A DNA stretch of 64,000 bases from Rhynchopus sp. YZ270_cl-10 (Eukaryota): assembly GCA_964035575.1 (NCBI GenBank), contig OZ037836.1, forward strand, positions 1,860,001 to 1,924,000, written 5' to 3'. Every line of letters begins with the position of its first letter. Position 1 is the first letter of the stretch. Of the stretch, positions 122 through 40,411 are shown one piece after another. The notes beneath the pieces were generated by a model. The model made no database searches and was not told where the DNA came from. It saw nothing but the letters and a program-made list of their open reading frames with translations. A program made the position numbers and the translations under genes.

Positions 122-973
122 ATGGAAATATGTGTGAAGAGCTTTGACGGAGAGAAGTACACAGTCGATGTGGGTGTGGATGATACAACTGCGGACATAC
201 GGCGGAAGGTGGCGTCTGCAGCAGAGTTGTGCGAAGACGGCTTTGACATGAGCTTCGGAGGGAAGCTGCTGGCCGAAGGAGACGACACGACACAGCTGAG
301 TGCTGGGGACACAGTTGTGCTGACGAAGACGAAGTCGCAGAAGGACGACGCCATTGCAGCTCTTCGTGACTTGGGTGAGACAGCGCTGACGACACAGAAG
401 TTCAAAGGTCTGGAAGATCCCAAGCTGATTCATTTGTTTCTGCAGGCGGAGGTTGTTACTGAGATCCCCCACTACTTCTTGGAAGGTACCACATTCTCAG
501 AACTTGATCTCAGTGGTGTGCCAGGTGTGACTGCAGTAGGTTACTCCGTCCTCTACAACTGCACCTCATTGCACACTCTTGATTTATCTGGGTGGAACAA
601 TGTGACGCACATCCGGCCCTATTTCGTCTCCAACTGCAGCGCATTGAAAACCCTTGACTTATCTGGGTGGAACAATGTAACGACTGTCGGATCCGGATTC
701 CTCTCCAACTGCAGTGCGTTGACGACACTGGACTTATCTGGGTGGAACAATGTGACGCAGATTGGGAGCTACTTCTTCTTCAACTGCACTTCGTTGGACA
801 CACTTGACTTGTCTGGGTGGACGAGTGTTACGCAGATTTATCCACACTTCCTGGAAGGATGCAACATACGGACAAGCAGCATCAATGTCACCGGATCGAG
901 CAGTGTTGTGACGAAATATGTGCACAGCCGTAAGGTAGAGGACGATACCAAACACAAATGTGTGTGCATGTGA
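122..973 (+). CDS. UBL-LRR protein, type A (N-terminal ubiquitin-like domain, 5 x 25-aa BspA-like LRRs, C-terminal CaaX CVCM)
   Basis: Intact 283-aa ORF; MEICVKSFDGEKYTVDV...FGGKLLAE resembles a ubiquitin fold; repeats LxxLDLSGWxNVTxIGxxFLxxC; ends KHKCVCM. Confidence 0.9.
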   Translation: MEICVKSFDGEKYTVDVGVDDTTADIRRKVASAAELCEDGFDMSFGGKLLAEGDDTTQLSAGDTVVLTKTKSQKDDAIAALRDLGETALTTQKFKGLEDPKLIHLFLQAEVVTEIPHYFLEGTTFSELDLSGVPGVTAVGYSVLYNCTSLHTLDLSGWNNVTHIRPYFVSNCSALKTLDLSGWNNVTTVGSGFLSNCSALTTLDLSGWNNVTQIGSYFFFNCTSLDTLDLSGWTSVTQIYPHFLEGCNIRTSSINVTGSSSVVTKYVHSRKVEDDTKHKCVCM

Positions 974-2520: not shown

Positions 2521-2541
2521 ATGGAAATATGTGTGAAGAGC
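2521..2541 (+). pseudogene. 5' stub of a type A UBL-LRR gene (MEICVKS) with its duplicated upstream region
   Basis: 2403-2541 matches 11-142; homology stops after codon 7 and transposon-like sequence follows. Confidence 0.8.
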
Positions 2542-2617
2542 GGCAAGGACCCCACAGAAGTATATTTCCCCCCGGTTATGGTCGTAATTGAAAGATTTGC
2601 GCCACGTCTTGCCTAGG

Positions 2618-3268
2618 GGCAGAGATTTTTTTGTGGGGGGGTGGGGGGGGGTTCGACCCCCCTTGGGGGGTTTTTCAGACGTGTCCAGGGGGGGTGGAGA
2701 AAAAAAAAATCCGGGGGCCGAAAAATTTCCAGGGGGGGTGGCCCGGCATGCACCCACACTCGCCATGGGGCCATATTCAGCCTCGTTCCTCGTGAACAAA
2801 GTGACTCCGTGCAGCCAGAACGCGACTCAATTAGTCAAGCGCCGAAGGAAAAGGAAGCATGCAGCATGGCGAAAGACAAAAAGTAGCGTACCGTGCGCCT
2901 GCGGCGCAAGCTTGCAACCCACCCTTCCCATGACATAGTTTGGCGGTAAAAATGTGTAATTTTAAGCGCAAATTTTTGAAATGTTGCGTACCGTGGCTTC
3001 GCCAGGAACCTATGGGTGCCATGACCGCCGTTTCTTTTGTAAATGTACTGAGGTTACTGATAATTCGTGTGCCCCGTCTGCCTGGTGTAAATATCAGTGA
3101 AGTGCCGAACTCCGCAGTTGGACAACCACGGAATTCTCACATTCCGCCGGAGGCCCCCAACTTGAGCTAAGGTGGGGACCCGGGCGCGCGAAGCGCGCCC
3201 GGGCTCGGCTGACAAATTTTCGACCCCCCTTGAGGCCTGAAAAACCGGATCGAAAAATAAACTCTGCC
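2618..3268. mobile_element. MITE with GGCAGAG termini and 4-bp TSD (TAGG), beside an orphan hAT-like right end (AAAACCCTG ending 3404)
   Basis: TAGG at 2614-2617 and 3269-3272; GGCAGAG/CTCTGCC ends; internal 2790-3183 is an inverted homolog of 27172-27673. Confidence 0.6.
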
Positions 3269-4197
3269 TAGGGGGAAAAAAAAGAAGAAAAAAAAAACAT
3301 TTCCCACTAACCGTTGGGGGTACCGCGGTACCCCCAAAAATCGAGTTTTTCCCCCAAATTTTTCCTTGGGGGTACCGGCGGTACCCCCCATAGCGAAAAC
3401 CCTGCTTTTATTTATTGTTTCATTAGAAAAAGAATGTATAATACTATATGAATTGTTGGGAAATAAAACCTGGAACGGTATTCTGCCCAAAGTCTGAGGG
3501 AAACTCAATACGTCATTTTGCGAAGACTTCTTTCCTGTTGGTGCGTGGGGTGTCTGCAACGTCTTGTCAATGTACTTCGTACATATTCACACAATAGCCC
3601 CGACTCCCACAGCCCCACCTCCACCAATGCTTTCCTCCACGCACTCCGTGCCTTCTTCCCACCATGATTGCCTCCTTCAGTGTTCTGATGTCCTCTCCTC
3701 CTCCCACAACCCCACCACACAACAGAGCAACACAAAAAAGAAGACAAAATGGACGTAACCATCAAGGGGTACGACGACAACTTGTTCATGATCGAGGTGG
3801 GTGTGGATGACACAACGGAGACGATGCGGCAGAAGGTGGCGTCTGCAGTGGGGTTGGCTGAGGACAGCTTCCACATGGGCTTCGGAGGGAAGGACGAAGG
3901 AGACGACATCACGCAGCTGAGTGCTGGAGACACAATCATCCTCACGAAAGCTACGAAGTACGCAGCCCGAGCAGAGCTTCATGCGTTGGGTGAGACGGAC
4001 ATCACTGCAGAGCGGTTGGGGGAGGTGGAGGATCCTGAGGTGGCGTGTTTGCTTCTGCAGGCGGAGGTTGCGACTGTCATTCCGGATGACTTCTTGTCGG
4101 GTTCATCATTAACGAGACTTGATCTGAGTGCTGTGTCGTGTGTGACGGAGGTTGGTGATACGTTTCTGTGCGATTGCACACTGTTGACAAGCATCGA

Positions 4198-4288
4198 GGG
4201 GACAAAAACGTGAGGTGGCAGCCCCCCGGCATTTTTGCCCTGGCGTCCCCGGCTATAATCTCTTTTTTGAGTGAACGAAGGCCACGCG
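4198..4288 (+). ncRNA. Putative HDV-like self-cleaving ribozyme
   Basis: P1 GGGGAC/GTCCCC(4245-4250); P2 GTGGC/GCCAC; P3 GCC/GGC; P1.1 CC/GG(4251-4252); short P4 CTC/GAG; J4/2 CGAA(4276-4279); first P1 base is the first base of the insertion. Confidence 0.75.
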
Positions 4289-4809
4289 TGGGATGGTTGC
4301 ATTGCACTTTTGCAAACCCGGGCACATGATACTGGAGGGTCCAAAGCAACTGGAGGAGGTGTATGCTGGGCTTTTTGTGCCCTCAGGGATTTAAGCGACC
4401 CTGCACCTACTTTACGACCATGCAGAGCTTTTGCTTTTCTTTTCTTTGCTTTTCTTTGCTTTTTGTAGGTGCTAACCTGCGGCAGTGGTTTGCATCAGTT
4501 GGGTGTTCCACTCACCGCAGTTTAGAGAATTAGGAGATGCCAGTCATTCGTTCCTCCCATTGGAATGACTGGTGGTTTTATTGTTGTTTATTTCTTTTGA
4601 CGCTGCCAGAGTGCGGACCTTGACCTGGCTTATATACTAACCTAGGCCACCAGCGGTGGTATACGGCCCCTGTTCACTTAGGTGTCGCTTCTTTGTTGGG
4701 TATAAGTCAGCAAATGGGATCAAGCCACTCTCTGGCACACCGTGGTGCCATCCTTCCCTTTTGCTGGTTTTTCTTTTTGCGGGGGTGGATCACGTTTTTC
4801 AAGTTTAAT
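4198..4809 (+). mobile_element. Non-coding retroposon-like insertion, family 1 (612 bp, 18-bp TSD)
   Basis: ACTGTTGACAAGCATCGA at 4180-4197 and 4810-4827; no TIR; no long ORF; ribozyme-like 5' head. Confidence 0.9.
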
Positions 4810-7319
4810 ACTGTTGACAAGCATCGACCTGTCTGGGTTGAGCAATGTGACTCGCATCGGTAGCGACGTTCTCTGCGACTGCAAAGGTTTAACCACTCTG
4901 GATCTTTCAGCACTCAGCAACGTGACGCGCATCGGTAGCTGCTTTCTCTACGGCTGCGAAGGTTTAACCACTCTGGATATTTCTCCACTCAGCAACGTGA
5001 CAGAATTCGGTAACCACTTTCTCAACGACTGCGAAGGCTTGACCACTCTGGATCTTTCGCCACTCAGCAACGTGACAGAAGTCGGTGACTACTTTCTCAA
5101 CGACTGCGAAGGCTTGACCACTCTGGATCTTTCGCCACTCAGCAACGTGACAGAATTCGGTAACCACTTTCTCAAGAACTGCGAAGGTTTAACCACTCTG
5201 GATCTTTCGCCACTCAGCAACTTGACGCACATCGGTATCGGCTTTCTCTACTACTGCGAAGGCTTGACCACTCTGGATCTTTCGCCACTCAGCAACGTGA
5301 CAGAAGTCGGTAACCACTTTCTCAAGAACTGCAAAGGCTTGACCACTCTGGATCTTTCGCCACTCAGCAACGTGACAGAAGTCGGTGACTACTTTCTCTC
5401 CGACTGCAACGGTTTAACCACTCTGGATCTTTCACCACTCAGCAGGGTCAAGTTTATTGGTGCGTACTTTCTTACGAACTGCACTTCGTTGAAGAGTATT
5501 CACCTTACCGGCTGCAGCAGTGCTGTGTCCGACACAGTAGTGAAGTGCGAGCTGAGCAACCTTGTGGTTGAAGCACGTCCGCAACGCAGCAGAGACGAAT
5601 CCCCCTAGCAAGCACACAAACGGCAGAGACACGCACAATGACGATGAGGTGTGCTGCATAACGGGATTCCTCAAGTCGCTCTTCCAACGAAAGCAGACAT
5701 GGTGGCAGTTTAGTGAGGACACATCAGTTGGAAAATGTTTGTTTAATGTTGATGAGGGTGGCATCGGTTTGTAATGTGGTCCACGTTTTGTGGGAATTGT
5801 CAAGATCTTGATCACAAAGATGAAGATTTGGGCTGTGTAAAATGTTTGGCTTGTTTGCCTTGTCGGGTGTGTGCACTGTATGTGAAACAACTGTGGATCT
5901 GCAGGTACGTGCTCTGTTGTTTATTCTGTGTTTTGGTTTTGTTATATTTTTACGCTTTTTTACGTTTGTAGAAGAAGGGACCTTGCGAACATTCTTTCGC
6001 AGGTGGGTACAAGCTGTCACCGTGGCACTCACTTCCCATCTCAACAATTCTCCTTGAAAGAAAAAATACGTTGTTTTATATTTTTGTTGCATGTATCTTC
6101 CAGTCCTGTGGCTGCCTGGAATAACGGGATGCATGCAACCCTGCAGTGCCATCAGCCATCTTGAGTTCACGAGATTACTGTGAACTCCGCTGCAGTTGCT
6201 GTGGTACATTTTACTGTTTCCTCAGTCCGATAAATTTTTTATTACGGTGCAGAAGAGGCAGTAGGGCAGACCAACTACCAAAGGTGGGGTCTGCGCTAGA
6301 GGGAAGGGGTTACGTTTTCAGGGTGTGTGCACTGTACGTGAGACAACTGACGTGCTCTGTTGTTTATCCAGGATCACGAACCTATGTCATTTGAAAGCAT
6401 ATTCGGGGATGGTACATGGGGACAGGAAGGGTAACAAACAAGGTGGTCGCCCTTCTTTATTAGCACGCCATATGTTAGGGTTTTGTGCATTGCTTCTTTC
6501 ATTAGTTTTGCAGTCAGGCCAGCTTACTGCATGGGAGGGCTGCCACATCCAGGGGTGAGATGTGCTGCCTGCAAATGACTTCTCGAGTCTGCGAAGTGCA
6601 TTTATACATTTTGCATCTCCATAACGATACACCTGCCCAGCTCAACCGACTCCCCCGACAACTCATGTGTAACTGTTCGACGAGAGAAACCATAAATGTG
6701 TTCCTTCCCATCCCTCCACCTTTTCACTGTCCTCTTGGTTCACCTTTCCTATTGGTCGGAAGTGCCAAAATAGGGTCGATAATTTTTGGATTGGAAAGAG
6801 CGGTCGCGAAAAAGCCCAAATAAGGCGTTTTCGTTTTCGTTTTTAAATTTTCTAATTTTTTAGTTTTTATGATTACAATGCAATGCTAAAAGGAAATTGA
6901 ACACCGTACCCACAAGAGAGGCCGCTTCCAGACTTCGGGCGGTTTTGAACACTACCCCTTCCTTAGTGGGTGATTTTCCGGCAACAAAAAACCACCAAAA
7001 AGCAAATTATAAAATGACACCCCCCACTGTCGAGGACATGTTAATATGGGGATCACCACAAAAACAAAACAAAAGACCTGTCCCCTTGTAACTGTTTGTT
7101 GTCTCTTGCGTACTCTCACCCCCAATTGTAAACACCTTGCACAAAACAGAGAGACACAAAACCATGGAAATATGTGTGAAGAGCTTTGACGGAGAGAAGT
7201 ACACAGTCGATGTGGGTGTGGATGATACAACTGCGGACATACGGCGGAAGGTGGCGTCTGCAGCAGAGTTGTGCGAAGACGGCTTTGACATGAGCTTCGG
7301 AGGGAAGCTGCTGGCCGAA

Positions 7320-7411
7320 CCCGGCGACGGACCGCCCCCCATAGCACATTTTTGCGGTGCACGGGCGTATCGGGATTAGTATCTTTTTTTCGAGAGAACC
7401 GAAGAGCGGCC
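7320..7411 (+). ncRNA. Putative HDV-like ribozyme (family 2 head)
   Basis: P1 CCCGGCG/CGT(AT)CGGG; P2 GG(A)CCGC/GCGGCC; P3 CCC/GGG; P1.1 AT/AT; J4/2 CGAA; L3 holds a GCAC/GTGC hairpin. Confidence 0.62.
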
Positions 7412-7940
7412 AGGTCCTGGACAAGTACGTTGTGCTTTTAGACCTACAAACTGTCTGGGGTGGTGGGACCTCGGTGCGAAGGGTGCTTCCCGGGACCCCA
7501 ATATCCTACCGCAATTATGGATCAGGATCCGAGTACACCATGTAAGCATGAACTATGCAGGGTACTCTAAGCCGATCACTTCCACAACTCCCAGATCCCA
7601 AGACCTCCACGGGGGGCAGGCCTCCACGGTAACCCGCGACCGCCGACACCTTAGCTCCGTACTGCCTCTGTCTGTAACCTGCCGGTCCCCCACTTACCTA
7701 CGTTTTTATGTGGTGTCTTTTTACGACGGTGGACCAAGGGGCTTTGCAGTGCAGTCAACGCCGACGGAGCGAGACTCGATTGTGACCGGGTGAAAAGGGA
7801 ACCTTAGCCAGCGCTAACCAGCGGCAGTTTTGACTCAGGGAAGGAGTTTCTCACCGCAGACTGGCGACACACCCCCACTTTTTCGGGGTGGCTCACATGT
7901 GGGACGGGGTGTTCCATCCTATTTTTCAAAAAACGTACAC
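7320..7940 (+). mobile_element. Non-coding retroposon-like insertion, family 2, full length (621 bp, 19-bp TSD)
   Basis: AGGGAAGCTGCTGGCCGAA at 7301-7319 and 7941-7959; closely similar to 13636-14239. Confidence 0.92.
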
Positions 7941-8085
7941 AGGGAAGCTGCTGGCCGAAGGAGACGACACGACGCAGCTGAGTGCTGGGGACACAGTTGT
8001 GCTGAAGAAGACGAAGTCGCAGAAGGACGACGCCATTGCAGCTCTTCGTGACTTGGGTGAGACAAGGCTGACGTCAGAGAGGTTC

Positions 8086-8453
8086 GCAGGGTACTCTAAG
8101 CCGATCACTTCCACAACTCCCAGATCCCAAGACCTCCACGGGGGGCAGGCATCCACGACACCTTAGCTCCGTACTGCCTCTGTCTGTAACCTGCCGGTCC
8201 CCCACCTACCTACGCTTTTTGTGGTGTCTTTTTACGACGGTGGACCAAGGGGCTTTGCAGTGCAGTCAACGCCGACGGAGCGAGACTCGATTGTGACCGG
8301 GTGAAAAGGGAACCTTAGCCAGCGCTAACCAGCGGCAGTTTTGACTCAGGGAGGAGTTTCTCACCGCAGACTGGCGACACACCCCCATTTTACAGGGTGG
8401 CTGCATTCCTCTTCGGAACGGGGTGTTCCATCCTATTTTTAAAAACGTTTATA
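8086..8453 (+). mobile_element. 5'-truncated family 2 retroposon (368 bp, 13-bp TSD)
   Basis: GTCAGAGAGGTTC at 8073-8085 and 8454-8466; matches only the 3' part (from 7557) of the full-length copy. 5' truncation with a TSD is typical of target-primed reverse transcription. Confidence 0.9.
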
Positions 8454-9812
8454 GTCAGAGAGGTTCAAAGGTCTGGATGATCCCAAGCTGATTCATTTGT
8501 TTCTGCGGGCGGAGGTTGTGACTGAGATCCCCTCCAACTGCTTGAGAGATGGCACGTTCTCAGAACTTGATCTCAGTGGTGTGCCAGGTGTGACTGCAGT
8601 AGGCCACTCCTTTCTCCGCTGCACCTCATTGCACACTGCTGACTTATCTGGGTGGAGCAATGTGACACTCCTAGAGGGTTTCTTTCTCTACAGCTGCAGC
8701 GCATTGACCACCCTTGACTTGTCTGGGTGGAATAATGTGACGCAACTTGGGAACTCTTTTCTCCGCGAGTGCAGCGCATTGAAAACACTTGACTTATCTG
8801 GGTTGGCGACTGTTCAGCACATTAGGGAAGACTTCCTGTATGGATGCAACATACCCACAAGCAGCATCAACGTCACCGGATCGAGCAGTGTTGTGTCAGA
8901 ATATGTGAACATAGCGGTAGCTTCGTGGACGATACCAAGCACCAATGTGTGTGCATGTGAGGTATGTGCATCTTTCGAGAGGCTAGGTGCTCATTGCGAT
9001 GTTCAGCGAACGAATTTTACATTGCACGTTGCACTTTGCCCCTACCAAAACTAACGTCGCTTTTTGACCATTATTGTTTATGCTTTCCCAACCCTCAACG
9101 TTACAAAGACGAGAGGAAAAAGAGAAATTGGTGATGTTTTTATACTCAGTTCTTTGCATCCTCGCATGCGTACAGTGATACAATCAAGCATGTTGTCGCA
9201 GCCAGTATTTTTGTGCACTTTTGCACTATTTTAACCGACGTATTTTTGTGCTTTTTTTTTGCACGACCATTCTGTGCTAAGACATAAGCCTGCTCGGTAC
9301 CCCCCGCACAACTTGCTGTTTGTGCCCATTCATCGTTCAAGGTTTCGTTCTTTGGTTCCAAAGTGGAAACAAAACAGCGTCATTTACCCCTTCATTTGTG
9401 TAGTCAGCTTTTTGTGTTTTTTTGTGTTGTGAGAGAAATGTGCAGGGTTGGACCCCTGTAGTCATGATAAAAGCCATGACGCCATTGAGCGACTCATAGG
9501 CGCATGAGTGATATACGTTGTCGCTGTGGTATCCCGCCTCGCAGAGGAAGGTGTTTTTGACACAGCAACTTCGTGAGTTAGTATCGGTCTGTGAATCAAA
9601 TTGGAAACGGCGTGTTTTGCGCTTCATATCGCAGAGGATAGAGAAACTGAAAAGTCATGAAAATGAAATACCCCCGTGTGCCCCACTAATTTGTTGATCG
9701 CATCCAATCAAAAGCAAAAGAAAAGACCTCTCCCCTTGCAACTGTTTGTTGTCTCTTGCGTACTCTTACCCCCAATTGAAAACACCTGCACAAAACAGAG
9801 AGACACAAAACC

Positions 9813-10745
9813 ATGGAAATATGTGTGAAGAGCTTTGACGGAGAGAAGTACACAGTCGAGGTGGGTGTGGATGATACAACTGCGGACATACGGCGGAAGG
9901 TGGCGTCTGCAGCAGAGTTGTGCGAAGACGGCTTTGACATGAGCTTCGGAGAGAAGGTGCTGGCCGAAGGAGACGACATCACGCAGCTGAGTGCTGGGGA
10001 CACAGTTGTGCTGACGAAGACGAAGTCGCAGAAGGACGACGCCATTGCAGCTCTTCGTGACTTGGGTGAGACAAGGCTGACGACACAGAGGTTCGAAGAT
10101 CTTGCAGATCCCAAGCTGGTTCATTTGTTTCTGCAGGCGGAGGTTGTTACTGAGATTCCCTTCAACTGCTTGAGAGATGGCACGTTCGAAGAACTTGATC
10201 TCAGTGGTGTGCCAGGTGTGCTTGAAGTCCAGGAATATTTCCTCGCAGACTGCAGGTCATTGCACACTGCTGATTTATCTGAGTGGAGCAATGTGACACG
10301 CACTGGGAGCAGTTTCCTCTCCCACTGCACCTCATTGACCACACTGGATATTTCTGGGTGGCACAATGTGACGCAGATGGGAAGGTGCTTTCTCTTCAAC
10401 TGCTGCGCATTGCAAACCCTTGACTTGTCTAAGTGGAACTATGTGACGCGGGTTGATGACTACTTTCTCTGCAACTGCAAGCGATTGACCGCTCTGGATA
10501 TTTCTGGGTGGAACAATGTGACGCATGTTGGGAACTATTTTCTCGGCAACTGCACTTCATTGAGAACACAAACACTTGACTTATCTGGGTTGACGACTGT
10601 TCAGCACATTGGGACAGACTTCCTGCATGGATGCTACATACCCACAAGCAGCATCAACGTAACCGGATCGAGCAGTGTTGTGACGAAATATGTGCAGACC
10701 CGTTGCCTCGTGGACATAATCAAGCACCAATGTGTGTGCATGTGA
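9813..10745 (+). CDS. UBL-LRR type A protein (6 LRRs, CaaX CVCM)
   Basis: Intact 310-aa ORF paralogous to 122-973. Confidence 0.9.
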   Translation: MEICVKSFDGEKYTVEVGVDDTTADIRRKVASAAELCEDGFDMSFGEKVLAEGDDITQLSAGDTVVLTKTKSQKDDAIAALRDLGETRLTTQRFEDLADPKLVHLFLQAEVVTEIPFNCLRDGTFEELDLSGVPGVLEVQEYFLADCRSLHTADLSEWSNVTRTGSSFLSHCTSLTTLDISGWHNVTQMGRCFLFNCCALQTLDLSKWNYVTRVDDYFLCNCKRLTALDISGWNNVTHVGNYFLGNCTSLRTQTLDLSGLTTVQHIGTDFLHGCYIPTSSINVTGSSSVVTKYVQTRCLVDIIKHQCVCM

Positions 10746-11697
10746 GTCATGTGCATCTTTCGACACATTGCACATCCTCGGGTGTCCACACTAATACAAC
10801 GAAGCTTTCAAAAACAAAACAAAGACCTCTCCCCTAACTGTTTGTTTTCTCTTGCACACCACACATACCTAAACACGAAGTTGCTTCCTTTCTCTGCAGA
10901 CAAACACACATGTCTTGTGGAAACCTTTTGAGTGTACCTCTTCTCGAAGTACGACAACAACGTGTCTTTGCAACATGAGGCTGTCTACCTCCACCATCTT
11001 TTCTCACCGCCCTGTCACCCTGTCACCCTTTTTTCTCCTTGTCGCATACGCGAATTTTCCTGGAACCGCAGGAAAAAGACTGGGGAGTGTTGGTGTGTCC
11101 GTGATGCCACAGAGCCGACTCGTTGAGTGCCTCACAAAACCTCAAATTGCTTCTTCTTTGCTTTTATTTATTGTCTTCGCGCTTTATCATTGTTGTTGGG
11201 AAATAAAACCTGGAACAGTATTCTGCCCAAAGTCTGAGGGAAACTCAATACGTCATTTTGCGAAGACTTCTTTCCTGTTGGTGCGTGGGGTGTCTGCAAC
11301 GTCTTGTCAATGTACTTCGTACATGTTCACACAATAGCCCCAACTCCCACAGCCCCACCCCCACCAATGCTTTCCTCCACGCACTCCGTGCCTTCTTCCC
11401 ACCATGATTGCCTCCTTCAGTGTTCTGATGTCCTCTCCTACTCCCACAACCCCACCACACAACAGAGCAACACAGAAAAAACGACAAAATGGACGTAACC
11501 ATCAAGGGGTACGACGACAACTTGTTCATGATCGAGGTGGGTGTGGATGACACAACGGAGACGATGCGGCAGAAGGTGGCGTCTGCAGTGGGGTTGGCTG
11601 AGGACAGCTTCCACATGGGCTTCGGAGGGAAGGACGAAGGAGACGACATCACGCAGCTGAGTGCTGGTGACACAATCATCCTCACGAAAACTAAGAA

Positions 11698-11771
11698 GGG
11701 GGCAATTAACGTCTGACCAACCGCCAAGTGGGGCCCCTGGACGCCGTGTTCGCATGGTACTGAGTCAGCGT
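11698..11771 (+). ncRNA. Putative HDV-like ribozyme (family 3 head)
   Basis: P1 GGGGGC/GCCCCT with G1.U wobble; P2 ACG(T)CTGA/TCAGCGT; P3 CCA/TGG; L3 ACCGCCAAG; P1.1 CC/GG; P4 GCCGTG-TTCG-CATGGT; J4/2 CTGA with C at 11760. Confidence 0.8.
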
Positions 11772-13550
11772 GGGCGGCCGCCTCTCCAATGATGGATTCG
11801 CTCGGGACCGGAGGAGGAACAAGCCGATGTGGGAACCCTGGTTATTAATACAACATCACAGTCAATTTCGGGCAGATCACCAGCTTATGTAGGCTACGCA
11901 AACCCCTTCGAGGGGTTTCAAGGATCTGTTACCTGTGCGGTGACTGGGAGTGTGTTGATGCCGATGAGGGGATCCCAGGTACAAGAAGGAAGCGTTGCCG
12001 GTGTCTCTACTGGTGACGGAATATTGTTGCTGTTCCTGTGTTGTCGTTTGACCGCATGGGAACGTTTTGTTGCTTTGTTGGTGCGTACACTGTATGTGAA
12101 ACAACTGTGGATCAGCAGGTACGTGCTCTTGTGTATTCAGTGTGGTGTGTTGTAGTTTTGTTCAGTTCAGTTCAGTTTTCATCTTTTTGCCGTAGTAGAA
12201 TTCTTGTGTTATGTGTTTAACCTCAGGCTGTGTACACCGTAGTGAAACATCTGTGGATCTGCAGGTGCGTGCTCTGTCGTTAATTCAGTGTGGCATGTTG
12301 TAGTTTTTGGTCTGTTTTTACGTTTTTATACGTTAGTAGAAGAAGGGATCTGCGAACATTCATTCGCAGGTGGGTACAAGTTGTCGCCGTGGCATTCAGC
12401 TACGGTGCAGAAGAAGTAGTAGGGCAGACCAACGTCTGTGCTAGAAGGAAGAGGTTAAACTTTCAGGGTGTATGCATTGTACGTGAAACAACTGTGGATC
12501 TGCAGGTACATGCTCTGCTGTTTTTCCAATGTGTTTATTTTTGTTCTATTTTCACGTGCTTTGGTACGTTGATAGATGAAGGAGTTGTCGCCGTGGCTCA
12601 GCTACGGTGCAGAAGAGGCAGTAGGGCAGACCAACGTCTGTGCTAGAAGGAAGAGGTTAAGCTTTCAGGGTGTATGCACTGTACGTGAAACAACTGTGGA
12701 TCTGCAGGTACATGCTCTGTTGTTTTTCCAATCTGTTTGTTTTTGTTCTATTTTCACGTGCTTTGGTACGTTGAAGATGAAGGAGTTGTCGCCGTGGCGT
12801 CCAGCTACGGTGCAGATGAGGCAGTAGGGCAGACCAACTACCAAATGTAGGGTCTGTGCTACGCGGAAAGGCTGGTACTTGAGTTTGTTCACTGTTTGTT
12901 GTAACTCCTTCCCTGCCGGCACTCCCTTACTTGTAAGGAAGAAGTTACAACTTTCTCTGTACAAATCAGGGGAATTTTGTGTGGCCGTCTGCCATATTGT
13001 GTGGACATGTTAGCTGACGGTGCTGCTGTTTCTTTTACAGCAACACTGCTCTTGCTGTTGATTTTTCTTTTTCATTTTTACTTTTTAATGTTTCGAAAAA
13101 CGGAGGTTAATGTTTCCGGTTCGGGCCTGGACTCCGACCCCTACTTTTGCTGACGCGTACGAACGGTCGTGAACCGTCCCCATTCTCTTACGGTGCGGGC
13201 AACGCGGTAACGGTGGCTAGGAAGAAGGGAATCACCCAGAACCACTAATCGCAGCCTGACAGGCACCGAACCTCGGGTGAGAATCCCCTCCTGTCAGCCC
13301 TGTTCGAAGTACCTATTTTGTTTGACCTTCTTGTCTTTTTGACTTTTTGACTTTTCTTTTATGCTATCGAACAGTGCACCCCCAGTAGTGTTGGCATGCA
13401 TACCTGGGCTGGTCGGCTTGCCGATCTGTTCCAGGGACTGGGGTAAAGTGCCATTAAACGCAGCAGGTACCTGTGTTTTTTGGGGGTCTTTTGGTTGGGA
13501 AGGCCACAGAAAGAAGGCCCGGCCTGCCAGAGACCTAAAACGGACCCCTA
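11699..13550 (+). mobile_element. Non-coding retroposon-like insertion, family 3 (~1852 bp, 18-19-bp TSD)
   Basis: CCTCACGAAAACTAAGAAG at 11680-11698 and 13551-13569; contains ~202-bp tandem repeats at about 12397-12860; no RT ORF. Confidence 0.9.
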
Positions 13551-13635
13551 CCTCACGAAAACTAAGAAGTACTCAGCCCGAGCAGAGCTTCACGCGTTGG
13601 GTGAGACGGACATCACTGCACAGAGGTTGGAGGAG

Positions 13636-14239
13636 CCCGACGGCGGACCGCCCCCCATAGCACATTTTTGCGGTGCACGGGCGTACGGGATTAGTATCTT
13701 TTTTTCGAGAGAACCCAAGAGCGGCCAGGTCCTGGACAAGTACGTTGTGCTTTTAGACCTACAAACTGTCTGGGGTGGTGGGACCTCGGGGCGAAGGGTG
13801 CTTCCCGGGACCCCAATATCCTACCACAAGGAGCTCGAGTCGTGCATGGAATGCAGGGTACTCTGAGCCGATTACTTCCACAAAACTCCCAGATCCCAAG
13901 ACCTCCACGGGGGGCAGGCCTCCACGGCAACCCGCGACCGCCGACACCTTAGCTCCGTACTGCCTCTGTCTGTAACCTGCCGGTCCCCCACCTACCTACG
14001 CTTTTTGTGGTGTCTTTTTACGACGGTGGACCAAGGGGCTTTGCAGTGCAGTCAACGCCGACGGAGCGAGACTCGATTGTGACCGGGTGAAAAGGGAACC
14101 TTAGCCAGCGCTAACCAGCGGCAGTTTTGACTCAGGGAGGAGTTTCTCACCGCAGACTGGCGACACACCCCCACTTTTTCGGGGTGGCTGCATTCCTCTT
14201 CGGAACGGGGTGTTCCATCCTATTTTTAAAAACGTTTAT
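13636..14239 (+). mobile_element. Family 2 retroposon, full length (604 bp, 19-bp TSD), ribozyme-like head at 13636-13726
   Basis: TGCACAGAGGTTGGAGGAG at 13617-13635 and 14240-14258; P1 CCCGACG/CGT(A)CGGG. Confidence 0.92.
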
Positions 14240-15747
14240 TGCACAGAGGTTGGAGGAGGTGGAGGATCCTGAGGTGGCGTGTTTGCTTCTGCAGGCGGAG
14301 GTTGCGACTGTCATTCCGGATGACTTCTTGTCGGGTTCATCATTAACGAGACTTGATCTGAGTGCTGTGTCGTGTGTGACGGAGGTTGGTGATAGGTTTC
14401 TGTACAGTTGTACAACGTTGACAAGCATCGACCTGTCAGGGTTGAGCAATGTGACGCGCATCGGTGGCTCCTTTCTCTACTACTGCGAAGGTTTAACCAC
14501 TCTGGATCTTTCACCACTCAGCAACGTGACAGAAGTCGGTGGCTGCTTTCTCTCCGACTGCGAAGGTTTAACCACTCTGGATCTTACACCACTCAGCAAC
14601 TTGACAAAAATCGGTAACTCCTTTCTCTACGGCTGCAAAGGCTTGACCACTCTGGATCTTTCGCCACTCAGCAACGTGACAGAAATCGATGGCAACTTTC
14701 TCAGCTGCACAGGCTTAACCACTCTGGATCTTTCACCACTCAGCAACTTGACGCGTATTGGTAGCTACTTTCTCTACGGCTGCAAAGGTTTAACCACTCT
14801 GGATCTTTCACCACTCAGCAGGGTTAAGGTTGTTGGTTCGCACTTTCTTACGAACTGCACTTCGTTGAAGAGTATTCACCTTACCGGCTGCAGCAGTGCT
14901 GTGTCCGACGCAGTAGTGAAGTGCGAGCTGAGCAAGCTTGTGGTTGAAGCACGTCCGAAACGCAGCAGAGACGAATCCCCCGAGCAAGCACACAAACGGC
15001 AGAGAGCCGCACAATGACGATGAGGTGTGCTGGTGGGAGGGTATAAAGGGAAGGACTGGAAGGGTTTCAGCCTCAGAATTGGCAAGGTTCGCGGTACCAA
15101 GTGGTGGCTCACGTGCCATTTGTGTTTGAGGAAGCCTGCTATGTAGCACAGCACCAAAAGCAAAGCAGCTGTGCTGCGGTCAACGAAAGCAGACATGGTG
15201 GCAGTTTAGTGAGGACACATCAGTTAGCAAATGTTTGTTTAATGTTGATGAGGGTAGCATCGGTTTGTAATGTGGTCCACGTTTTTGTGGGAATTGTCAG
15301 GATCTTGATCACAACGATGAAGATTTGGGCTGTGTAAAATGTTTGTCTTGTTTGCCTTGTCGGGTGTGTGCACTGTATGTGAAACAACTGTGGATCTGCA
15401 GGTACGTGCTCTGTTGTTTATTCAGTGTGGTGTGTTGTGGTTTTGTTATGTTTTTACGCTTTTTTACTAACAAGAAGAAAACCGACGCAGGATCTTTTCT
15501 TGGAACTGTTTTATTCTCCTCACCCCAACAACAACATCACATTCAGAAAAACACTGTTTTTTCGTTTTTTTTCGCTTTCTTTTCGTCTTCCTCACACTTT
15601 GTTACTACGAAGAAAATTTTTTTCGTTCGCGCTTTTTTACGTTTGTAGAAGAAGGGACCTTGCGAACATTCTTTCGCAGGTGGGTACAAGCTGTCACCGT
15701 GGCACTCACTCAACAATTCTCCTTGAAAGAAAAAATACGTTGTTTTA

Positions 15748-17319
15748 GGGGGATCCGTAAATAGACCGGCAACGACCAGACACGTAATTAGTGTGTATAG
15801 CCGGTCTTTAGGGTCCGTAAAAAGACCGGCTCTTAAGGATTACCGGCTATAAGGGCCGGTCCTACCCACCCTCGAAAAAGACCGGCAGACCGGGTGTACA
15901 ATTGTACACACAAAAAATATCCGATTTTTTGGAAAAAACCAAAGGGGGACCCTTTGGTCGTCGAAATTCCCCAGCCAAAATTGGTCGCAAAATCGGCCGA
16001 TTTTTCAAAAATCTCAAAAAAAAAAAATCCCAAAAATTTTTTTTCACAAGTGTTTTTGAGGCCTGCTCACTACACCCTAGGCACCCTCCTGGGACCAAAA
16101 AGTCAAAAAAAGCAAGAATTGAGCTGTTTTGAGCATCTAGAGTTTATTCCCCAGCCATTTTCTGCACCACCAGTGCACTTTGTATGGGCCAGCGCCTTGT
16201 CAAAAAATCGAAAAATCTCAAAAAAAAAATTTTTTTTTTCGGGAAAATTTCGACCCCTGAGTTGGGTTTTTGGGCAGCAAAAAGTGCAAAAAAACGCAAA
16301 AATCGGGTGTTTTGACGATCTGGGGGTAAACCATATGCATTATGCACCTTATGCATTACTACAGGGCCCACAATTTCGGCTTTTCCTTAGCAAATTCCGC
16401 CACAATTTTTTTTTTTTTTCGATTTTGGCAAAGGCAAATCTCAGGCAAAAAGAAATCACCCCGATAATGGGTCCTTGGGTGTCCAAAGATGCCAAAAACA
16501 CAAAAAAAATTGATGTTTTGACCATCGGTGGGCACCTAAAACGCACTTTTCTGCCCAAAAAATGAATATCGATTTTTCTTAGCGTTCTTATAGCCGTGAT
16601 TTTTCAGTTTTTTTTCGCAAAGGTGAAAAAAAAATTCACCCAAAATAGTGGGTCCTTGGGAGACCAAAAACGCAAAAAAACGCAACATTTTGGTGTTTTG
16701 ACCCTTCAGAAGCACCCAAAACGCACTTTTGTGTACCAAAACACGCATATTTCACATTTCCTTAGCAATTCCTTTCACAAGTACAAGGCGATTTTTGACC
16801 AGACAAAAAAAATTTTATTGCCCAAAAACGGGCGTGGTAGGCACCCGAAGTCATAAAATGGCCCAAAGAATCCAAAAAACCTCAGAAATACATGTTCGTG
16901 AATAAACATTTGCAAGTCAAAATTCAACCACAATACGGTCATTTTGTGCATACCCTGTAGTAGTGGCTAGAGAGCACGCATGCAGACCTGTTCCTTGCAA
17001 TTTCCAGTGTTGTGTTTATCAATGCATGCATCCAGAGGACCTCTGGTTTGCGGAATCGTAGGCACTCCTGAGCAAAAATGAAGTCGGTTTTTGACCCAAA
17101 ATCGGGGTGTGTGGGCCTAATTTGCTCCAAATTTGGCCGAAAATTGGGATTTTTCTGAAAATTTCATTGTGCTCAGCAAAAATCCTTGCTTTTTTGAAGA
17201 ATTTTCCAAAAAATATGCTATACCCCCTATGACTGGACCCAACTCCCCTCACCCTTTTTTTTTTTCACCCAAAAGGGCCGGAAATTTTACACACGAATAC
17301 ACAAACTTACGGACCCCCC
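15748..17319. mobile_element. Non-autonomous PIF/Harbinger-like element (TTA TSD, 13-bp TIR GGGGG[A/G]TCCGTAA)
   Basis: TTA at 15745-15747 and 17320-17322; empty site in the paralog near 6075 (TGTTTTATATTTTTG). Confidence 0.85.
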
Positions 17320-18832
17320 TTATATTTTTGTTGCATGTATCTTCCAGTCCTGTGGCTGCCTGGAATAACTGGATGCATGCAACCCTGCAGTGCCATCAGC
17401 CATCTTGAGTTCACGAGATTACTGTGAACTCCGCTGCAGTTGCTGTGTTACATTTTACTGTTTCCTCAGTCCGATAACTTTTTTATTACGGTGCAGAAGA
17501 GGCAGTAGGGCAGACCAACTACCAAAGGTGGTCTGCGCTAGAGGGAAGGGGTTACGTTTTTAGGGTGTGTGCACTGTACGTGAGACAACTGACGTGCTCT
17601 GTTGTTTATCCAGGATCACGAACCTATGTCATTTGAAAGCATATTCGGGGATGGTACATGGGGACAGGAAGGGTAACAAACAAGGTGGTCGCCCTTCTTT
17701 ATTAGCACGCCATATGTTAGGGTTTTGTGCATTGCTTCTTTCATTAGTTTTGCAGTCAGGCCAGCTTACTGCGTGGGAGGGCTGCCACATCCAGGGGTGA
17801 GATGTGCTGCCTGCAAATGACTTCTCGAGTCTGCGAAGTGCATTTATACATTTTGCATCTCCATAACGATACACCTGCCCAGCTCAACCGACTCCCCCGA
17901 CAACTCATGTGTAACTGTTCGACGAGAGAAACCATAACTGTGTTCCTTCCCATCCCTCCACCTTTTCACTGTCCTCTTCGTCCATCTTTCCTATTGGTCG
18001 GAAGTGCCAAAATAGGGTCGATAATTTTTGGATTGGAAAGAGCGGTCGCGAAAAAGCCCAAATAAGGCGTTTTCGTTTTCGTTTTCGTTTTTAAATTTTC
18101 TAATTTTTTAGTTTTTATGATTACAATGCAATGCTAAAAGGAAATTAAACACCGTACCCAGAAGATGGCCGCTTCCAGACTTCGGGCGGTTCGGACTGAG
18201 TGTGGGGACGCGTTCAAGAATTAAACTCTTCCCCCCAAACCCCCTTTCGTCTCTAGTTTTCTTTATCCAAACGTCAAGTGGATGCGTAATAATTTTTGCA
18301 TTTTAGTTTTCATTTTTGAATTTGCTATTAATTTAATAAAGATACGATACCCACCCTATTCAAACCCAAACCTTTGTATTTCAGTGTGATCTGTGGTGAG
18401 GACGTGTTCCAACTTTTCAACGTCTTCCATTATTATTCTGACCCTGTGGATGATCTCAAGTACACCTGCCACGCAGAAAGCAGCCATCCACAAAGTCATT
18501 AACCTGTCAGAGTCCCACGTCAAGAGGGCCTTCCCCACCTCCCGCATGGGGCCATTGTCGGATGCGTTGTCCTACGTTATCCCGTACCTGTTTTGTCGTT
18601 GTTTCTTCTTGCCCCACCCAAACCACCTGCACAAAACAGATTTGACTCAACAGCAACCACCACAGTACACTGATCCTTGCCTAGACGTCTTTCTCACTGT
18701 CTCTCCATCCCCTTTTAAATAGTTGATAAAAAAAAGTGGAGATTGCGCAATACTGTGGCAACACAAACCGAGGCAACTGCACTACTCCAAGAATTTTTCA
18801 GAAAAAAACAGAACTCAGTCAGTCTAGGATAA

Positions 18833-20620
18833 ATGAACTGCCTCGATGCTGTACTATCGCTGGACGGGTCGTTGTGCGCGAAGGAACGCAAAAAGCGCTC
18901 GATTGTGCTGTTCTTCGCTTTGGCTGGGATTGTCTTTCTTGTTGCTGGGGTGGGCGCACGCATGGGGAAGCCGATTCCCGCAGCTATCCTTGCTGTGTAC
19001 ATCACGTCATTTGTCGTGGTGCTGTACCTCCTTGGATGTGTTCTGTGCAAAAGGGAGCTGAGCCACAACCTAATTGTCACTGTCTTGTACACTGCTAGCG
19101 TGGGCTTCTACGTAATGGACCTGAACGCGCGGACCGTGGGCATCCAAATGTGGCCTCTGCTCGTCATCGTTGTTGATTTGTTCTTGGTTCTCGAGGTGCC
19201 CGGGCAGTACACAACCGGGTTGGTGGCGTTCACTGTCTTCTGGTTGATTTTGATGGCTGTAGAAGAAAGCTTTCGTTTCGGGATCTTCGACCTCCCAGGG
19301 CTGAACGAGCAGCACGGTGAGTTTGGGAGAAGAGCGCACTTTCTTGCAAGAATGGACTGTGAGACGCTGCCTTGCCCAGTAGATTTCCCCCCAAGAACAC
19401 TGTACACCGCACTCTCCGTTTTTGTAATCGACTTCATGGCAACCCGAGGCTTCGCGAGGGAGGTGTTGAAGGATCAGGTGTCCATGGAGAAGACGATCAA
19501 CACTGTGCAGGTCATTGCCTCGATGCTGGCACAGTATGACGTGGAGGGGGTGGCCAGCCTGCTGACGACACACGAGGCCGACCTCCCTGCTGCCATGACC
19601 GAAGCACTTCGGCACTTAGAAGAGAACCTACGCCTCTACAAAGCGTACCTCCCGATGACGTGCCTGCCCTTTCCCACTCATGAAGTGGCGCGCGGCGATG
19701 TTTTCGACCGTGGATTATCCTGTTCACGGTCGTCCTCGCTCGCTTCCTCCTTATCCATCCAGCATCTTGTTTCGAGTCCTCGAGCCCTCGCATTGCCGCA
19801 GATAGGCTTGAGTGCCGTCAAGGCAACGTTGTTAACGATAAATATAAAAGACACATATGCGATCTTGGAGGATGGAGGCACCCATTTTGCGGCGTTGTTC
19901 ACGATGTTGCTGCAGCGTGTCATTGATGCGAGCGAATCGCAGAGGGGGATGGTCGATGTGTTTGTCGGCGACAGAGTACATTGCTCATTCAACACTACCC
20001 GGGTCTGCGCCAACCATGCGACATCAGCTCTGCACGCAGTATCAGCAGTGCTCGGAAATTCGATGGCAGTTGACGTCAATATGGGTGTCGCAACAGGAAA
20101 CGTGCTGCGTGGTGATATGGGATGTGACGGAATGCGTCGCTTCAGCATGGTAGGTCCTCTGGTGCGTGATGTGCACGGCATGGAGAGGGCAGGGCGTACG
20201 CTTGGGTGTACCGTCGTGTGTAATAGGATATGCTTTTCAGATGCAGAGTGTGAGCATCAGTTACGTCTGTTGCCGTGCAGGGTGGAGGTGGACAGCGGGT
20301 GTGAGAAGGAGCACATTGCCGAGCTGCTTGAAACCTCCAACGACAACGACCCCGACGCAGACGAATGGATGTACATGATAGGCGGCCGCAGTGATTGGGA
20401 CACATACAACGCAGTGGTGCGGAAGTACCTCAAAGGCAAGGCGTCTGCGCAGGACGTCATCGACGCTGCCTCTCAGGGTGTCTGTGCACAGAAACCCCTC
20501 AACGTTGTGCCCGGGTCGGTAAAAGGGGACCTCCTCTGTCTGCCGGTGCGCACAGCGCGTACCTCACGGTATTCCACACTGGATGCGTCAGTGTCGTTTC
20601 TTCGCACGACAACTGAGTAG
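18833..20620 (+). CDS. Multi-pass membrane protein with a degenerate class III adenylyl/guanylyl cyclase-like domain (copy 1)
   Basis: 595 aa; about 6 hydrophobic segments, then YKAYLP, TLLTINIKD, VFVGDRVHCSFN, MGVATGNVLRGDMG, EWMY. Confidence 0.85.
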   Translation: MNCLDAVLSLDGSLCAKERKKRSIVLFFALAGIVFLVAGVGARMGKPIPAAILAVYITSFVVVLYLLGCVLCKRELSHNLIVTVLYTASVGFYVMDLNARTVGIQMWPLLVIVVDLFLVLEVPGQYTTGLVAFTVFWLILMAVEESFRFGIFDLPGLNEQHGEFGRRAHFLARMDCETLPCPVDFPPRTLYTALSVFVIDFMATRGFAREVLKDQVSMEKTINTVQVIASMLAQYDVEGVASLLTTHEADLPAAMTEALRHLEENLRLYKAYLPMTCLPFPTHEVARGDVFDRGLSCSRSSSLASSLSIQHLVSSPRALALPQIGLSAVKATLLTINIKDTYAILEDGGTHFAALFTMLLQRVIDASESQRGMVDVFVGDRVHCSFNTTRVCANHATSALHAVSAVLGNSMAVDVNMGVATGNVLRGDMGCDGMRRFSMVGPLVRDVHGMERAGRTLGCTVVCNRICFSDAECEHQLRLLPCRVEVDSGCEKEHIAELLETSNDNDPDADEWMYMIGGRSDWDTYNAVVRKYLKGKASAQDVIDAASQGVCAQKPLNVVPGSVKGDLLCLPVRTARTSRYSTLDASVSFLRTTTE

Positions 20621-33700: not shown

Positions 33701-35040
33701 GGGTACCTGGGTACAGGAAATTTGTTGTGGAAGACATCAACCACCATGCATTGAGGAGGGTAAGACAGTGGTCGCAGTTTCTACCTGATAGCATTACAAC
33801 ATTTAACTTCTCCACGGGGGTCTTGGGCCGTTCACTCGGTTCTACCTTGACTACCGGAAGATATTCTTGAGGCCTTTCTGGTCTCTAGTATATCCGGTCT
33901 TCCCGAACGGAGGCACACTTTGTGTGTTACTACGACCTGGCAATCTCCAGCAGTAGGTTAAGTAATCTTTCTTGTAAATTGTTGGAACATTATCTCCTCA
34001 GTGCATGAATGCCCCACGTGACTGGACACTTTTGTGTTTGTCATGTGGAGCTGTGGTTGCTCTTTCACGACTTTTTTCCTGTTCCTGGGTACCTGTTCCT
34101 GGACCTGGGTATCTGGGTATCTGGGTATCTGGGTATCTGGGTATCTGGGTATCTGGGTATCTGGGCATCTGGGTATACCCGAAAACCAACTTTTTTGGGG
34201 TGCCCGAAAAAAGTTGGCGATATGGTCAGACATGCCCGAAAATAAGTTGAGAAATGGTCAGAGATACCCGAAATACCCGAAAATAAGTTCAGATATTGGT
34301 CAGTTATGCCCTATTTTTGAAAATGGGGCATCTCTGACCAATATCTGAACTTATTTTCGGGTATCTCTGACCAATATCTGAACTTATTTTCGGGTATCTC
34401 TGACCATTTCAAAAAAAGGGTAGGGCATAACTGACTATTCCCCAAAAAATTTTTTTTTCGCCCAAAATCGGGCGTGGTACGTCATAAAATGGCCCAAAAA
34501 ATCCAAGGAAAACCTTCGATTGGGCAAATTATGAAAAAAATTTTCAAGTCAAATTTTCAACCAAAATACGGTCATTTTGTTCACACAGTGATTCTACGTC
34601 ATGCTAGCTTCCTGTGCAGAACTCCAGCAATTCACCAATGCCGGCATCTATCTTTCCATTATCGCCATTGCACTTCGTTCACGCCATTGCACTTCGGTCA
34701 TTTTGTGCATACCCTGTGACTGTGGTGGCTAGAGAACACGCACATGCAGACCCGTTCCTTGCAATTTCCAGTGTTGTGTTTATATTTATGGTTTTTGACC
34801 CAAAATCGGGGTGGGTGGGCCATAATTTGCTCCAAATTTGGCCGAAAATTGGGATTTTTCTGAAAATTTTCATTGTGCCCAGCAAAAATCCTTGATTTTT
34901 TGAAGAATTTTCCAAAAAATATGCTATACCCCCTATGACTGGACCCAACTCCCCTCACCCTTTTTTTCCCCTAAAAAAGCCCCCAAAATTCCTACCATTT
35001 TTACCATTTTTACCATTTTTGACCAATTTAGGGTACCTCC
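30799..35040. mobile_element. Large non-autonomous TIR element (13-bp TIR GGAGGTACCCTAA, 3-bp TSD AAT; Harbinger-like)
   Basis: AAT at 30796-30798 and 35041-35043; internal 31593-32250 and 34450-34970 homologous to the 15748 element. Confidence 0.75.
32257..34443. mobile_element. Nested Mutator-like element (~70-bp TIR starting GGGGAATAGTCAGTT, ~11-bp TSD AAAAAATTTTT), containing a (CTGGGTAT)n array at about 34105-34176
   Basis: Long TIRs directly visible; the TSD is low complexity, so its length is uncertain. Confidence 0.75.
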
Positions 35041-40370: not shown

Positions 40371-40411
40371 TTCCCCCACCCCCACCCCCGCAAACAATAA
40401 TGCAAATAAAT

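What the first reader, a model, noticed from the sequence alone, without database searches (positions are those of the whole stretch)
4180..14258. Three families of ribozyme-headed, non-coding retroposons inserted in sense inside one multicopy gene family
Seen: five insertions (4198-4809, 7320-7940, 8086-8453, 11699-13550, 13636-14239) with 13-19 bp TSDs, no TIRs, no coding capacity and no real poly(A) tail; one is 5'-truncated. All five lie within the first ~450 coding bases of UBL-LRR genes on the gene strand. I found no TSD-bounded copy in the much larger intergenic space or in other genes. In all four full-length copies the element starts at base 1 of an HDV-like nested double pseudoknot (P1, P2, P3, P1.1, P4, C-N-R-A J4/2). 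Known: R2, some RTE elements and the trypanosomatid L1Tc/ingi/SIDER clade use HDV-like ribozymes to free their 5' ends from host transcripts; ingi-clade TSDs are about 12 bp with poly(A) tails, unlike these. Inference: promoterless SINE-like parasites that use a redundant gene array as a haven, cut themselves out of the host RNA and, by cleaving it, switch off individual receptor paralogs.
Basis: partly seen in the sequence, partly recalled or inferred. Interest (0 to 1): 0.88.

Follow-up and report, generated by a model that had tools for sequence, protein, structure and literature searches.

The report
Ribozyme-headed retroposons targeting one gene family
Several families of small jumping elements, each beginning with a predicted self-cutting RNA, have landed again and again at their own fixed spots inside one large family of protein-coding genes, likely carried there by reverse-transcriptase elements such as the one found at one of those spots, a kind of targeting mostly known from RNA-gene arrays.

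Summary
All five insertions, their 13-19 bp TSDs and their sense orientation in UBL-LRR genes are real. An HDV-like descriptor fires at the first base of all four full-length copies (post hoc descriptor; 8 hits in 127,740 positions); cleavage is untested.

The larger result came from predicted proteins of paralogs. Each family has its own fixed site. B sits after T-x-x-R-L-x-x (47 of 51 proteins, hosts about 59% identical). C sits after L-T-K-x-x-K (20 of 20). A sits in the Asp codon of LRR repeats (11 of 11, three in later repeats). The C and A counts come from host-seeded searches. Four more families use the same three sites.

The C site also holds an autonomous LINE (2A motif, AP endonuclease, RT, CCHC) in several differently truncated copies. 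So this is site-specific retroposition into a protein-coding family, not a passive haven. The insertion itself breaks the reading frame, so cleavage is not needed to silence a paralog.

Closest precedent: RIME/ingi in trypanosome RHS genes. Several families dividing one coding family into separate sites, as in rDNA, did not turn up in my searches. New variant of a known kind.

The parts
4198..4809 (+). Family A retroposon, 612 bp, in the Asp codon of the first LRR repeat
   Evidence: TSD; an X4 contig starts exactly at 4198; same register in 11 of 11 A-tailed proteins
4180..4197 (+). TSD of A, first copy (second copy 4810-4827)
4198..4289 (+). Predicted HDV-like ribozyme of A: 6-bp P1, P3, L3 with extra hairpin, P1.1 CC/GG, candidate catalytic C4276
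   Evidence: activity untested
7320..7940 (+). B1, full-length B at a secondary site in the UBL domain; TSD 7301-7319 / 7941-7959
   Evidence: 1 of the 2 off-site B proteins
7320..7411 (+). Predicted HDV-like ribozyme of B1, candidate catalytic C7400; P1.1 A-U pairs, bulged P1
   Evidence: activity untested
8086..8453 (+). Bt, 5'-truncated B at the main B site; TSD 8073-8085 / 8454-8466
   Evidence: left TSD edge at the same base as B2's
11698..13550 (+). Family C retroposon, about 1.85 kb; TSD 11680-11698 / 13551-13569 (last base shared with the element)
   Evidence: same site in 20 of 20 C-tailed proteins
11698..11771 (+). Predicted HDV-like ribozyme of C: G.U first pair, P1.1 CC/GG, P4 with UUCG loop, candidate catalytic C11760
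   Evidence: activity untested
12070..12870 (+). C interior: repeated segments also found in intergenic DNA behind UBL-LRR genes (5855-6370, 15352-15708, 17487-17612)
   Evidence: origin (capture or relic) not resolved
13636..14239 (+). B2, full-length B at the main B site; TSD 13617-13635 / 14240-14258; candidate catalytic C13715
   Evidence: X10 contig starts exactly at 13636; empty-site contigs
14110..14155 (+). 50-nt motif shared by B and A (A 4471-4520), 76% identical
   Evidence: E 6e-4
3749..5608 (+). UBL-LRR gene broken by A (409 aa without it)
   Evidence: Pfam ubiquitin and LRR_5 on intact paralogs
7164..9054 (+). UBL-LRR gene broken by B1 and Bt (289 aa without them)
9813..10745 (+). 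Intact UBL-LRR paralog with all three sites empty
11489..15017 (+). UBL-LRR gene broken by C and B2 (344 aa without them)

Best explanation
A, B and C are non-coding retroposon families that each sit at their own fixed site in a large UBL-LRR gene family, begin with a predicted HDV-like ribozyme, and are likely copied in by site-specific LINEs, one of which (AP endonuclease plus RT) is found at the C site. Shown: fixed sites, many independent insertions in diverged paralogs, TSDs, 5' truncations, and the LINE at the C site. Inferred: the LINE endonuclease nicks the bottom strand at a fixed base and the top strand about 18-19 nt further on; its RT primes on the element's 3' end; the fixed polarity of the target puts every copy in sense; host read-through transcription carries the element and the ribozyme cuts it free at +1, which would explain the exact 5' ends. 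A and B likely use other LINEs that I did not find. The host gene is lost through the insertion itself.
For: TSDs. B at one site in 47 of 51 B-tailed proteins, 2 with too little context, 2 elsewhere (4 of the 47 placed by eye, 3 of the 51 are the window's own). With only the B peptide scored, 17 of 18 hits are at that site. C 20 of 20, A 11 of 11. Host UBL identity among carriers: median 59% (B), 67% (C), 59% (A); closest host lacks the family in 25 of 32, 17 of 18, 7 of 7. B needs 24 changes on a tree of 169 hosts, at least 8 forced by starred branches. P0307 is host UBL fused in frame at the C site to an RT (RVT_1 E 7e-20); its cluster holds two 1666-aa ORFs with Exo_endo_phos and RVT_1. Tails at the C site read as shifted frames of that ORF from different start points: runs of 42, 26, 18, 15, 14 codons against a null of at most 10. 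3'-end fusions at the C site share C's last few codons. Descriptor anchoring.
Against: No cleavage assay. The descriptor is post hoc, and Rfam finds no HDV family. Nested folds of the heads are no more stable than shuffles (z 0.2-2.0; the program cannot fold pseudoknots), and B's best nested fold competes with P1/P2. The LINE ORFs have no tblastn hit in A, B or C, so the C-LINE link rests on the shared site and a short shared 3' end. That P0316 and P0393 are one element is inferred. Head of the LINE-linked family E: P2 unresolved, descriptor 0 of 300 samples. A and C counts come from host-seeded searches and cannot show off-target copies. Gene calling favours in-gene copies. One B copy lies outside the family (P0239). 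B-type 3' ends with flanks unlike the laid stretch exist (11 and 8 contigs) and may be diverged paralogs or off-target. The tree has only 68 columns.
Confidence: 0.76

Rival explanations
1. A few old insertions were spread by duplication or gene conversion of the host genes; there is no targeting.
For: The family is large and duplicated in blocks. The B label is slightly clustered on the tree (24 changes against 29.7 shuffled, 1 of 500), so some copies may be inherited.
Against: Near-identical elements sit in hosts 47-100% identical, each junction keeping its own host sequence. Many different 5' truncation points and different families occur at one site, which one event cannot give.
Confidence: 0.04
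2. Insertion is near random and copies survive only in redundant genes.
For: P0239 and B1 are off the main site; searches are biased towards genes.
Against: Survival cannot fix the base: 47 of 51, 20 of 20, 11 of 11 at one register. Intergenic DNA in the window tolerates other insertions (15748-17320) yet holds no A or B copy.
Confidence: 0.05
3. Targeting is real, but the heads are relics or mainly internal promoters and do not cut (most likely for B).
For: B has a C at +1, a bulged P1, A-U P1.1 and a competing fold. Pr77 is also a promoter and one tested SIDER2 head was inactive.
Against: All pairings and C-N-R-A are present in three unlike sequences, exactly at the boundary. A and B differ in P1.1 (CC/GG against AT/AT) yet both pair. 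L1TcRz is active with a single-pair P1.1.
Confidence: 0.12
4. B behaves as an intron: its TSD supplies a GT..AG register, so splicing would restore the gene.
For: Both window copies at the main B site have one GT..AG register that removes element plus one TSD. Diplonemids have many introns, some non-canonical.
Against: A, C and B1 have no such register. The AG-GT is missing at this site in 2 of 8 window paralogs. About 12% chance per TSD by my estimate.
Confidence: 0.05

Closest known systems
[quoted passage not shown]
   Same: A LINE and its short non-autonomous partner insert at a hot spot in the 5' coding part of a large multigene family and turn members into pseudogenes.
   Different: Here three sites and at least seven families share one unrelated gene family; the LINE has no RNase H hit and seems to have an OTU-bearing ORF1, while ingi has RNase H and no ORF1; no poly(A) tail. 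That ingi also lies at many other loci is recalled.
NARTc, RIME, SIDER with Pr77/L1TcRz (PMC4035085 parts 1-2 of 7; PMC3383444 part 1 of 4; PMC3185411 passages)
   Same: Short non-coding retroposons whose first base is the +1 of an HDV-like ribozyme. B shares the order TAGTA-hairpin-GAA-C-N-AAG with the L1Tc primers printed (compared by eye; motif 2 hits, 0.03 expected).
   Different: A and B have a hairpin inserted in L3; A and C do not resemble Pr77; strict targets in coding sequence; SIDERs lie in 3' UTRs.
R2 and other target-specific non-LTR elements of rDNA, tRNA, snRNA, microsatellite, telomere and transposon repeats (PMC5035012, passages)
   Same: Fixed site in a multicopy locus, fixed bottom-strand cut with a looser top-strand cut, HDV-like head, several families sharing one array.
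   Different: The target is protein-coding and diverged; the LINE is APE-type. The paper's list of target types does not name protein-coding genes.
2A-bearing APE-type LINEs (Ingi, CR1, L2, Rex1, Crack; PMC3708506, passages)
   Same: P0393 has a DVEENPGP motif at residue 81, just before the APE domain.
   Different: Clade not determined here; it also has two C-terminal Cys/His repeats with no Pfam match.

Membership tests
Non-autonomous non-LTR retroposon | TSDs of variable length, no terminal repeats | tested here: met
   13-19 bp in 5 of 5
Non-autonomous non-LTR retroposon | 5'-truncated copies with intact 3' end | tested here: met
   Bt; P0180, P0140, P0151, P0166
Non-autonomous non-LTR retroposon | No coding capacity | tested here: met
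   0 Pfam families in 18 of 18 frames; no tblastn hit of the LINE ORFs
Non-autonomous non-LTR retroposon | 3' end shared with an autonomous LINE | tested here: inconclusive
HDV-like ribozyme | Nested double pseudoknot P1, P2, P3, P1.1, P4 in order, C-N-R-A in J4/2 | tested here: met
   4 of 4 full-length heads, post hoc descriptor; B deviates most
HDV-like ribozyme | Match to a curated Rfam HDV-like model | tested here: not met
HDV-like ribozyme | Mg-dependent self-cleavage 5' of +1 | not testable with these tools
   needs an in vitro assay
ingi/L1Tc clade | Pr77-like 5' hallmark | tested here: inconclusive
   B resembles it in the 3' half; A and C do not
ingi/L1Tc clade | APE + RT + RNase H in one ORF with N-terminal 2A | tested here: not met
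   2A, APE, RT present; no RNase H by Pfam at E 0.5 or by motif
ingi/L1Tc clade | Poly(A) tail | tested here: not met
   ends are short A/T-rich or C-rich stretches
ingi/L1Tc clade | RT phylogeny with ingi | not tested
R2-group (restriction-like endonuclease) elements | C-terminal restriction-like endonuclease, no APE | tested here: not met
   APE at the N-terminus, no such Pfam hit; holds for the C-site LINE only
Target-specific non-LTR retrotransposon | Independent copies at one site of a multicopy sequence | tested here: met
Target-specific non-LTR retrotransposon | Few copies off target genome-wide | tested here: inconclusive
   B: 17 of 18 on site in the element-only search; A, C and the LINE not testable without the assembly
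Spliceosomal intron / introner | GT/GC..AG register that restores the frame | tested here: inconclusive
   2 of 5 (Bt, B2), none for A, B1, C

The most novel reading that the evidence does not exclude
A protein-coding gene family serves as an rDNA-like niche, divided among at least three sequence-specific LINE lineages. Each reads its own roughly 20-bp coding target across paralogs only about 60% identical in protein, and each is parasitised by several ribozyme-headed non-coding families selected by their 3' ends. Together they knock out a large share of the family and may drive its turnover.
Probability: 0.55. Interest if true: 0.86.

Novelty: new variant of a known kind. Interest (0 to 1): 0.78.

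Why it matters
Target-specific non-LTR elements are listed for RNA genes, simple repeats and transposons; the one coding-gene precedent I found is the single RHS hot spot. Here several families divide one diverged coding family into three sites. That makes it testable how an APE-type LINE recognises a site and how a non-coding passenger picks its carrier. An intact 1666-aa ORF with a known target is in hand, of interest for site-directed insertion tools. The heads add unusual HDV-like variants (hairpin in L3, A-U P1.1). About half of the truncated UBL proteins retrieved (56 of 112) end in one of six element tails, so these elements are a major source of pseudogenes in this family.

Tried and rejected
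No genome held for the window. No RNA holder listed among 14 runs, so expression, cleavage and splicing could not be examined; X10 is only guessed to be RNA and was not used as such. JGI metagenomes: 0 matches to a B 3' pattern; 0 of 162 pattern hits confirmed for the UBL alignment. Rfam: no HDV family. Loose descriptor too permissive. Contig depth (A 3485, B 9952, C 3451-4406 against 41-157 for empty-site and short host pieces in X4) suggests tens of copies, but the tool warns depth is no copy number, so it is not used as a count. ESM Atlas gave no answer. No partner LINE for the A and B sites: 0 of 6 tails match the C-site LINE. Weak matches of A at 53354 (a T-rich run) and of C at 57725 (46 nt) were looked at and are not copies. 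The hit at 58334 lies in a 64-bp tandem repeat. Earlier findings of the scan: nothing in 4 look-ups. PMC118050 and PMC3308841 were not held. DNA transposon and LTR readings rejected: no terminal repeats, variable TSD, 5' truncations.

Full report
Observation. The five inserts and TSDs are as described: A 4198-4809, B1 7320-7940, Bt 8086-8453, C 11699-13550, B2 13636-14239, with exact repeats of 18, 19, 13, 19 and 19 bp. The hosts carry a ubiquitin-like domain and BspA-type LRRs (on intact paralogs). The window has 9 such gene starts; 3 carry these elements, and cutting them out restores frames of 409, 289 and 344 aa. B1, Bt and B2 are one family (91-94% identical); A and B share one 50-nt motif. 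No frame of A, B1 or C matches Pfam (0 of 18). No genome is held. The host is probably a diplonemid: this is my inference from recalled protein style and from a 28S rRNA fragment like the about 3600 described in D. papillatum; it was not tested.

Ribozyme heads. A loose descriptor hits the four starts among many chance hits. A stricter one, tuned after seeing the elements, gives 8 hits in 127,740 positions, five rows being the four starts; shuffled heads give 0, 0, 1 and 0 of 1000. C is the most canonical: it starts at G11698 with a G.U pair and has CC/GG in P1.1 and a UUCG-capped P4. A has CC/GG and C-G-A-A but an extra hairpin in L3. B has the same L3 hairpin, A-U pairs in P1.1, a bulged P1, and a 3' half laid out like L1Tc's Pr77 (primers compared by eye; motif). 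Against: no Rfam match, nested folds no better than shuffles, and a competing fold in B. Public contigs begin exactly at 4198 and 13636, which fits those boundaries. Cleavage is predicted, not shown.

Targeting. Gene callers translate broken paralogs into the first codons of an insert, so predicted proteins map insertion sites. A search with one intact gene gave 291 relatives, of which the 120 listed were examined. A search with the N-terminal 100 residues, limited to 53-175 aa, gave 112 proteins, all examined; 56 end in one of six recurring tails. Cluster members and a representatives search added more (408 proteins in all). They recur on one set of ENA contigs that includes the window's own proteins, so they likely come from one assembly and are not independent samples. 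B follows T-x-x-R-L/F-x-x in 47 of 51 proteins; 2 have too little context; 2 lie elsewhere (the window's B1, and P0239). In the window, Bt and B2 have their left TSD edge at the same base of two subfamilies. C follows L-T-K-x-x-K in 20 of 20. A falls in the Asp codon of L-x-x-L-D in 11 of 11, eight in the first repeat and three near codons 204, 256 and 308. Scoring only B's own peptide gave 18 hits of 18 candidates, 17 on site. Hosts of B carriers are 47-100% identical (median 59%) while the B part is 95-100% identical over the full-length matches. On a FastTree of 169 host domains (68 columns; 48 rows labelled 'other' left out) B needs 24 changes, C 15, A 7, D 6. Laid contigs show empty-site paralogs and B at the same junction in a diverged paralog. 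Further families use the same sites: D at the B site (7), E and F at the C site (4 and 3), G at the A site (2). Limits: A and C were found only through the host, and contigs with B-type 3' ends and unlike flanks (11 in X2, 8 in X4) could be distant paralogs or off-target copies.

The carrier. P0307 is a host UBL fused in frame, at the C site, to a 5'-truncated RT. Its cluster of 7 holds two 1666-aa ORFs with a 2A motif, AP endonuclease, RT, CCHC knuckle and two Cys/His repeats, without an RNase H or restriction-like hit. P0316 is a UBL fused at the same site to a long OTU-bearing ORF. Of 18 C-site tails tested (3 too short), five read as shifted frames of the RT ORF from different start points (runs of 42, 26, 18, 15, 14), two as shifted frames of P0316 (32, 24), one is borderline (12) and seven do not match; shuffled tails reach at most 10. 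So one LINE, or two, inserted at this site many times. Family E is the start of the P0316 element. From two frames it shows P1, P3 with a 7-nt L3, CC/GG, a long P4 and C-T-A-A by eye, but P2 is unresolved and the descriptor failed in 300 of 300 samples. Other elements at the C site end in C's last codons, and others share B's last 60-110 nt, so 3' end and site go together. The LINE ORFs do not match A, B or C. No carrier was found for the A and B sites (0 of 6 tails).

Mechanism. Shown: fixed sites, repeated insertion, TSDs, truncation, a LINE at one site. Inferred: target-primed reverse transcription from a fixed bottom-strand nick, sense orientation set by the target, release from host transcripts by the ribozyme, and choice of carrier by the 3' end. 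Gene loss needs no cleavage: stops follow within 4-76 codons. Rivals are scored above; the intron register in Bt and B2 is the one that RNA data could revive.

Known and new. Ribozyme-headed short retroposons are known in trypanosomatids (PMC4035085, parts 1-2 of 7; PMC3383444, part 1 of 4; PMC3185411, passages). RHS genes are a known hot spot for ingi and RIME (PMC7563717, passages). Target-specific elements are listed for RNA genes, repeats and transposons (PMC5035012, passages). 2A motifs before APE are known (PMC3708506, passages). The D. papillatum paper has no mention of a ribozyme in its main text and calls for a proper transposon survey (PMC10161547, passages); its supplement on repeats was not read and may bear on novelty. 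PMC12278014 (passages) and PMC12621601 (part 1 of 8) were also seen. Nine searches (listings only, apart from the papers named) showed no report of such elements in diplonemids or of several families dividing one coding family; Repbase and subscription journals were not searched.

Verdict. Real, and stronger than first reported on targeting; weaker on the regulatory story. New variant of a known kind, interest 0.78.

Noticed in passing
window 15748-17320: About 1.57-kb insertion with terminal inverted repeats in intergenic DNA, absent from the duplicate at 6076; likely a non-autonomous DNA transposon with a short T/A-rich TSD.
   Followed up: partly
window 2521-2700: UBL-LRR gene start cut at codon 7 by a different insertion without an HDV hit.
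   Followed up: no
window 46318-46614: 28S rRNA fragment (Rfam E 3e-16) between two imperfect copies of a 78-bp stretch (46299-46376, 47153-47227), at the end of a long ORF.
   Followed up: partly
window 41588-46348: 1586-aa ORF with PA and laminin-G-like domains and a cyclase-like C-terminus (label recalled); its last codons run into what looks like a GT intron near 46280.
   Followed up: no
window 18833-20620 and 22981-24768: Two 97.7% identical 595-aa membrane proteins with no Pfam hit; C-terminal part resembles that of the 41588 ORF by eye.
   Followed up: no
window 122-973, 9813-10745, 38345-39472, 54544-55830: One UBL-LRR subfamily ends in a CaaX-like motif (CVCM), the other in a basic tail.
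   Followed up: no
window 5855-6370, 15352-15708, 17487-17612: Intergenic segments behind UBL-LRR genes match C's interior and contain splice-site-like words; C may have captured host 3' DNA.
   Followed up: partly
proteins P0325, P0341, P0317, P0319: The same UBL occurs with B-box zinc fingers in front, or fused to unrelated C-terminal parts near the C site.
   Followed up: no
window 58324-58536: 64-bp tandem repeat; a relative lies upstream of the one off-target B copy, P0239.
   Followed up: partly
window 40411-41384 and 34251-34470: Long inverted arrangement of short TTGTGAAAAG-type repeats, and a perfect long hairpin matched by chance to MIR405.
   Followed up: no
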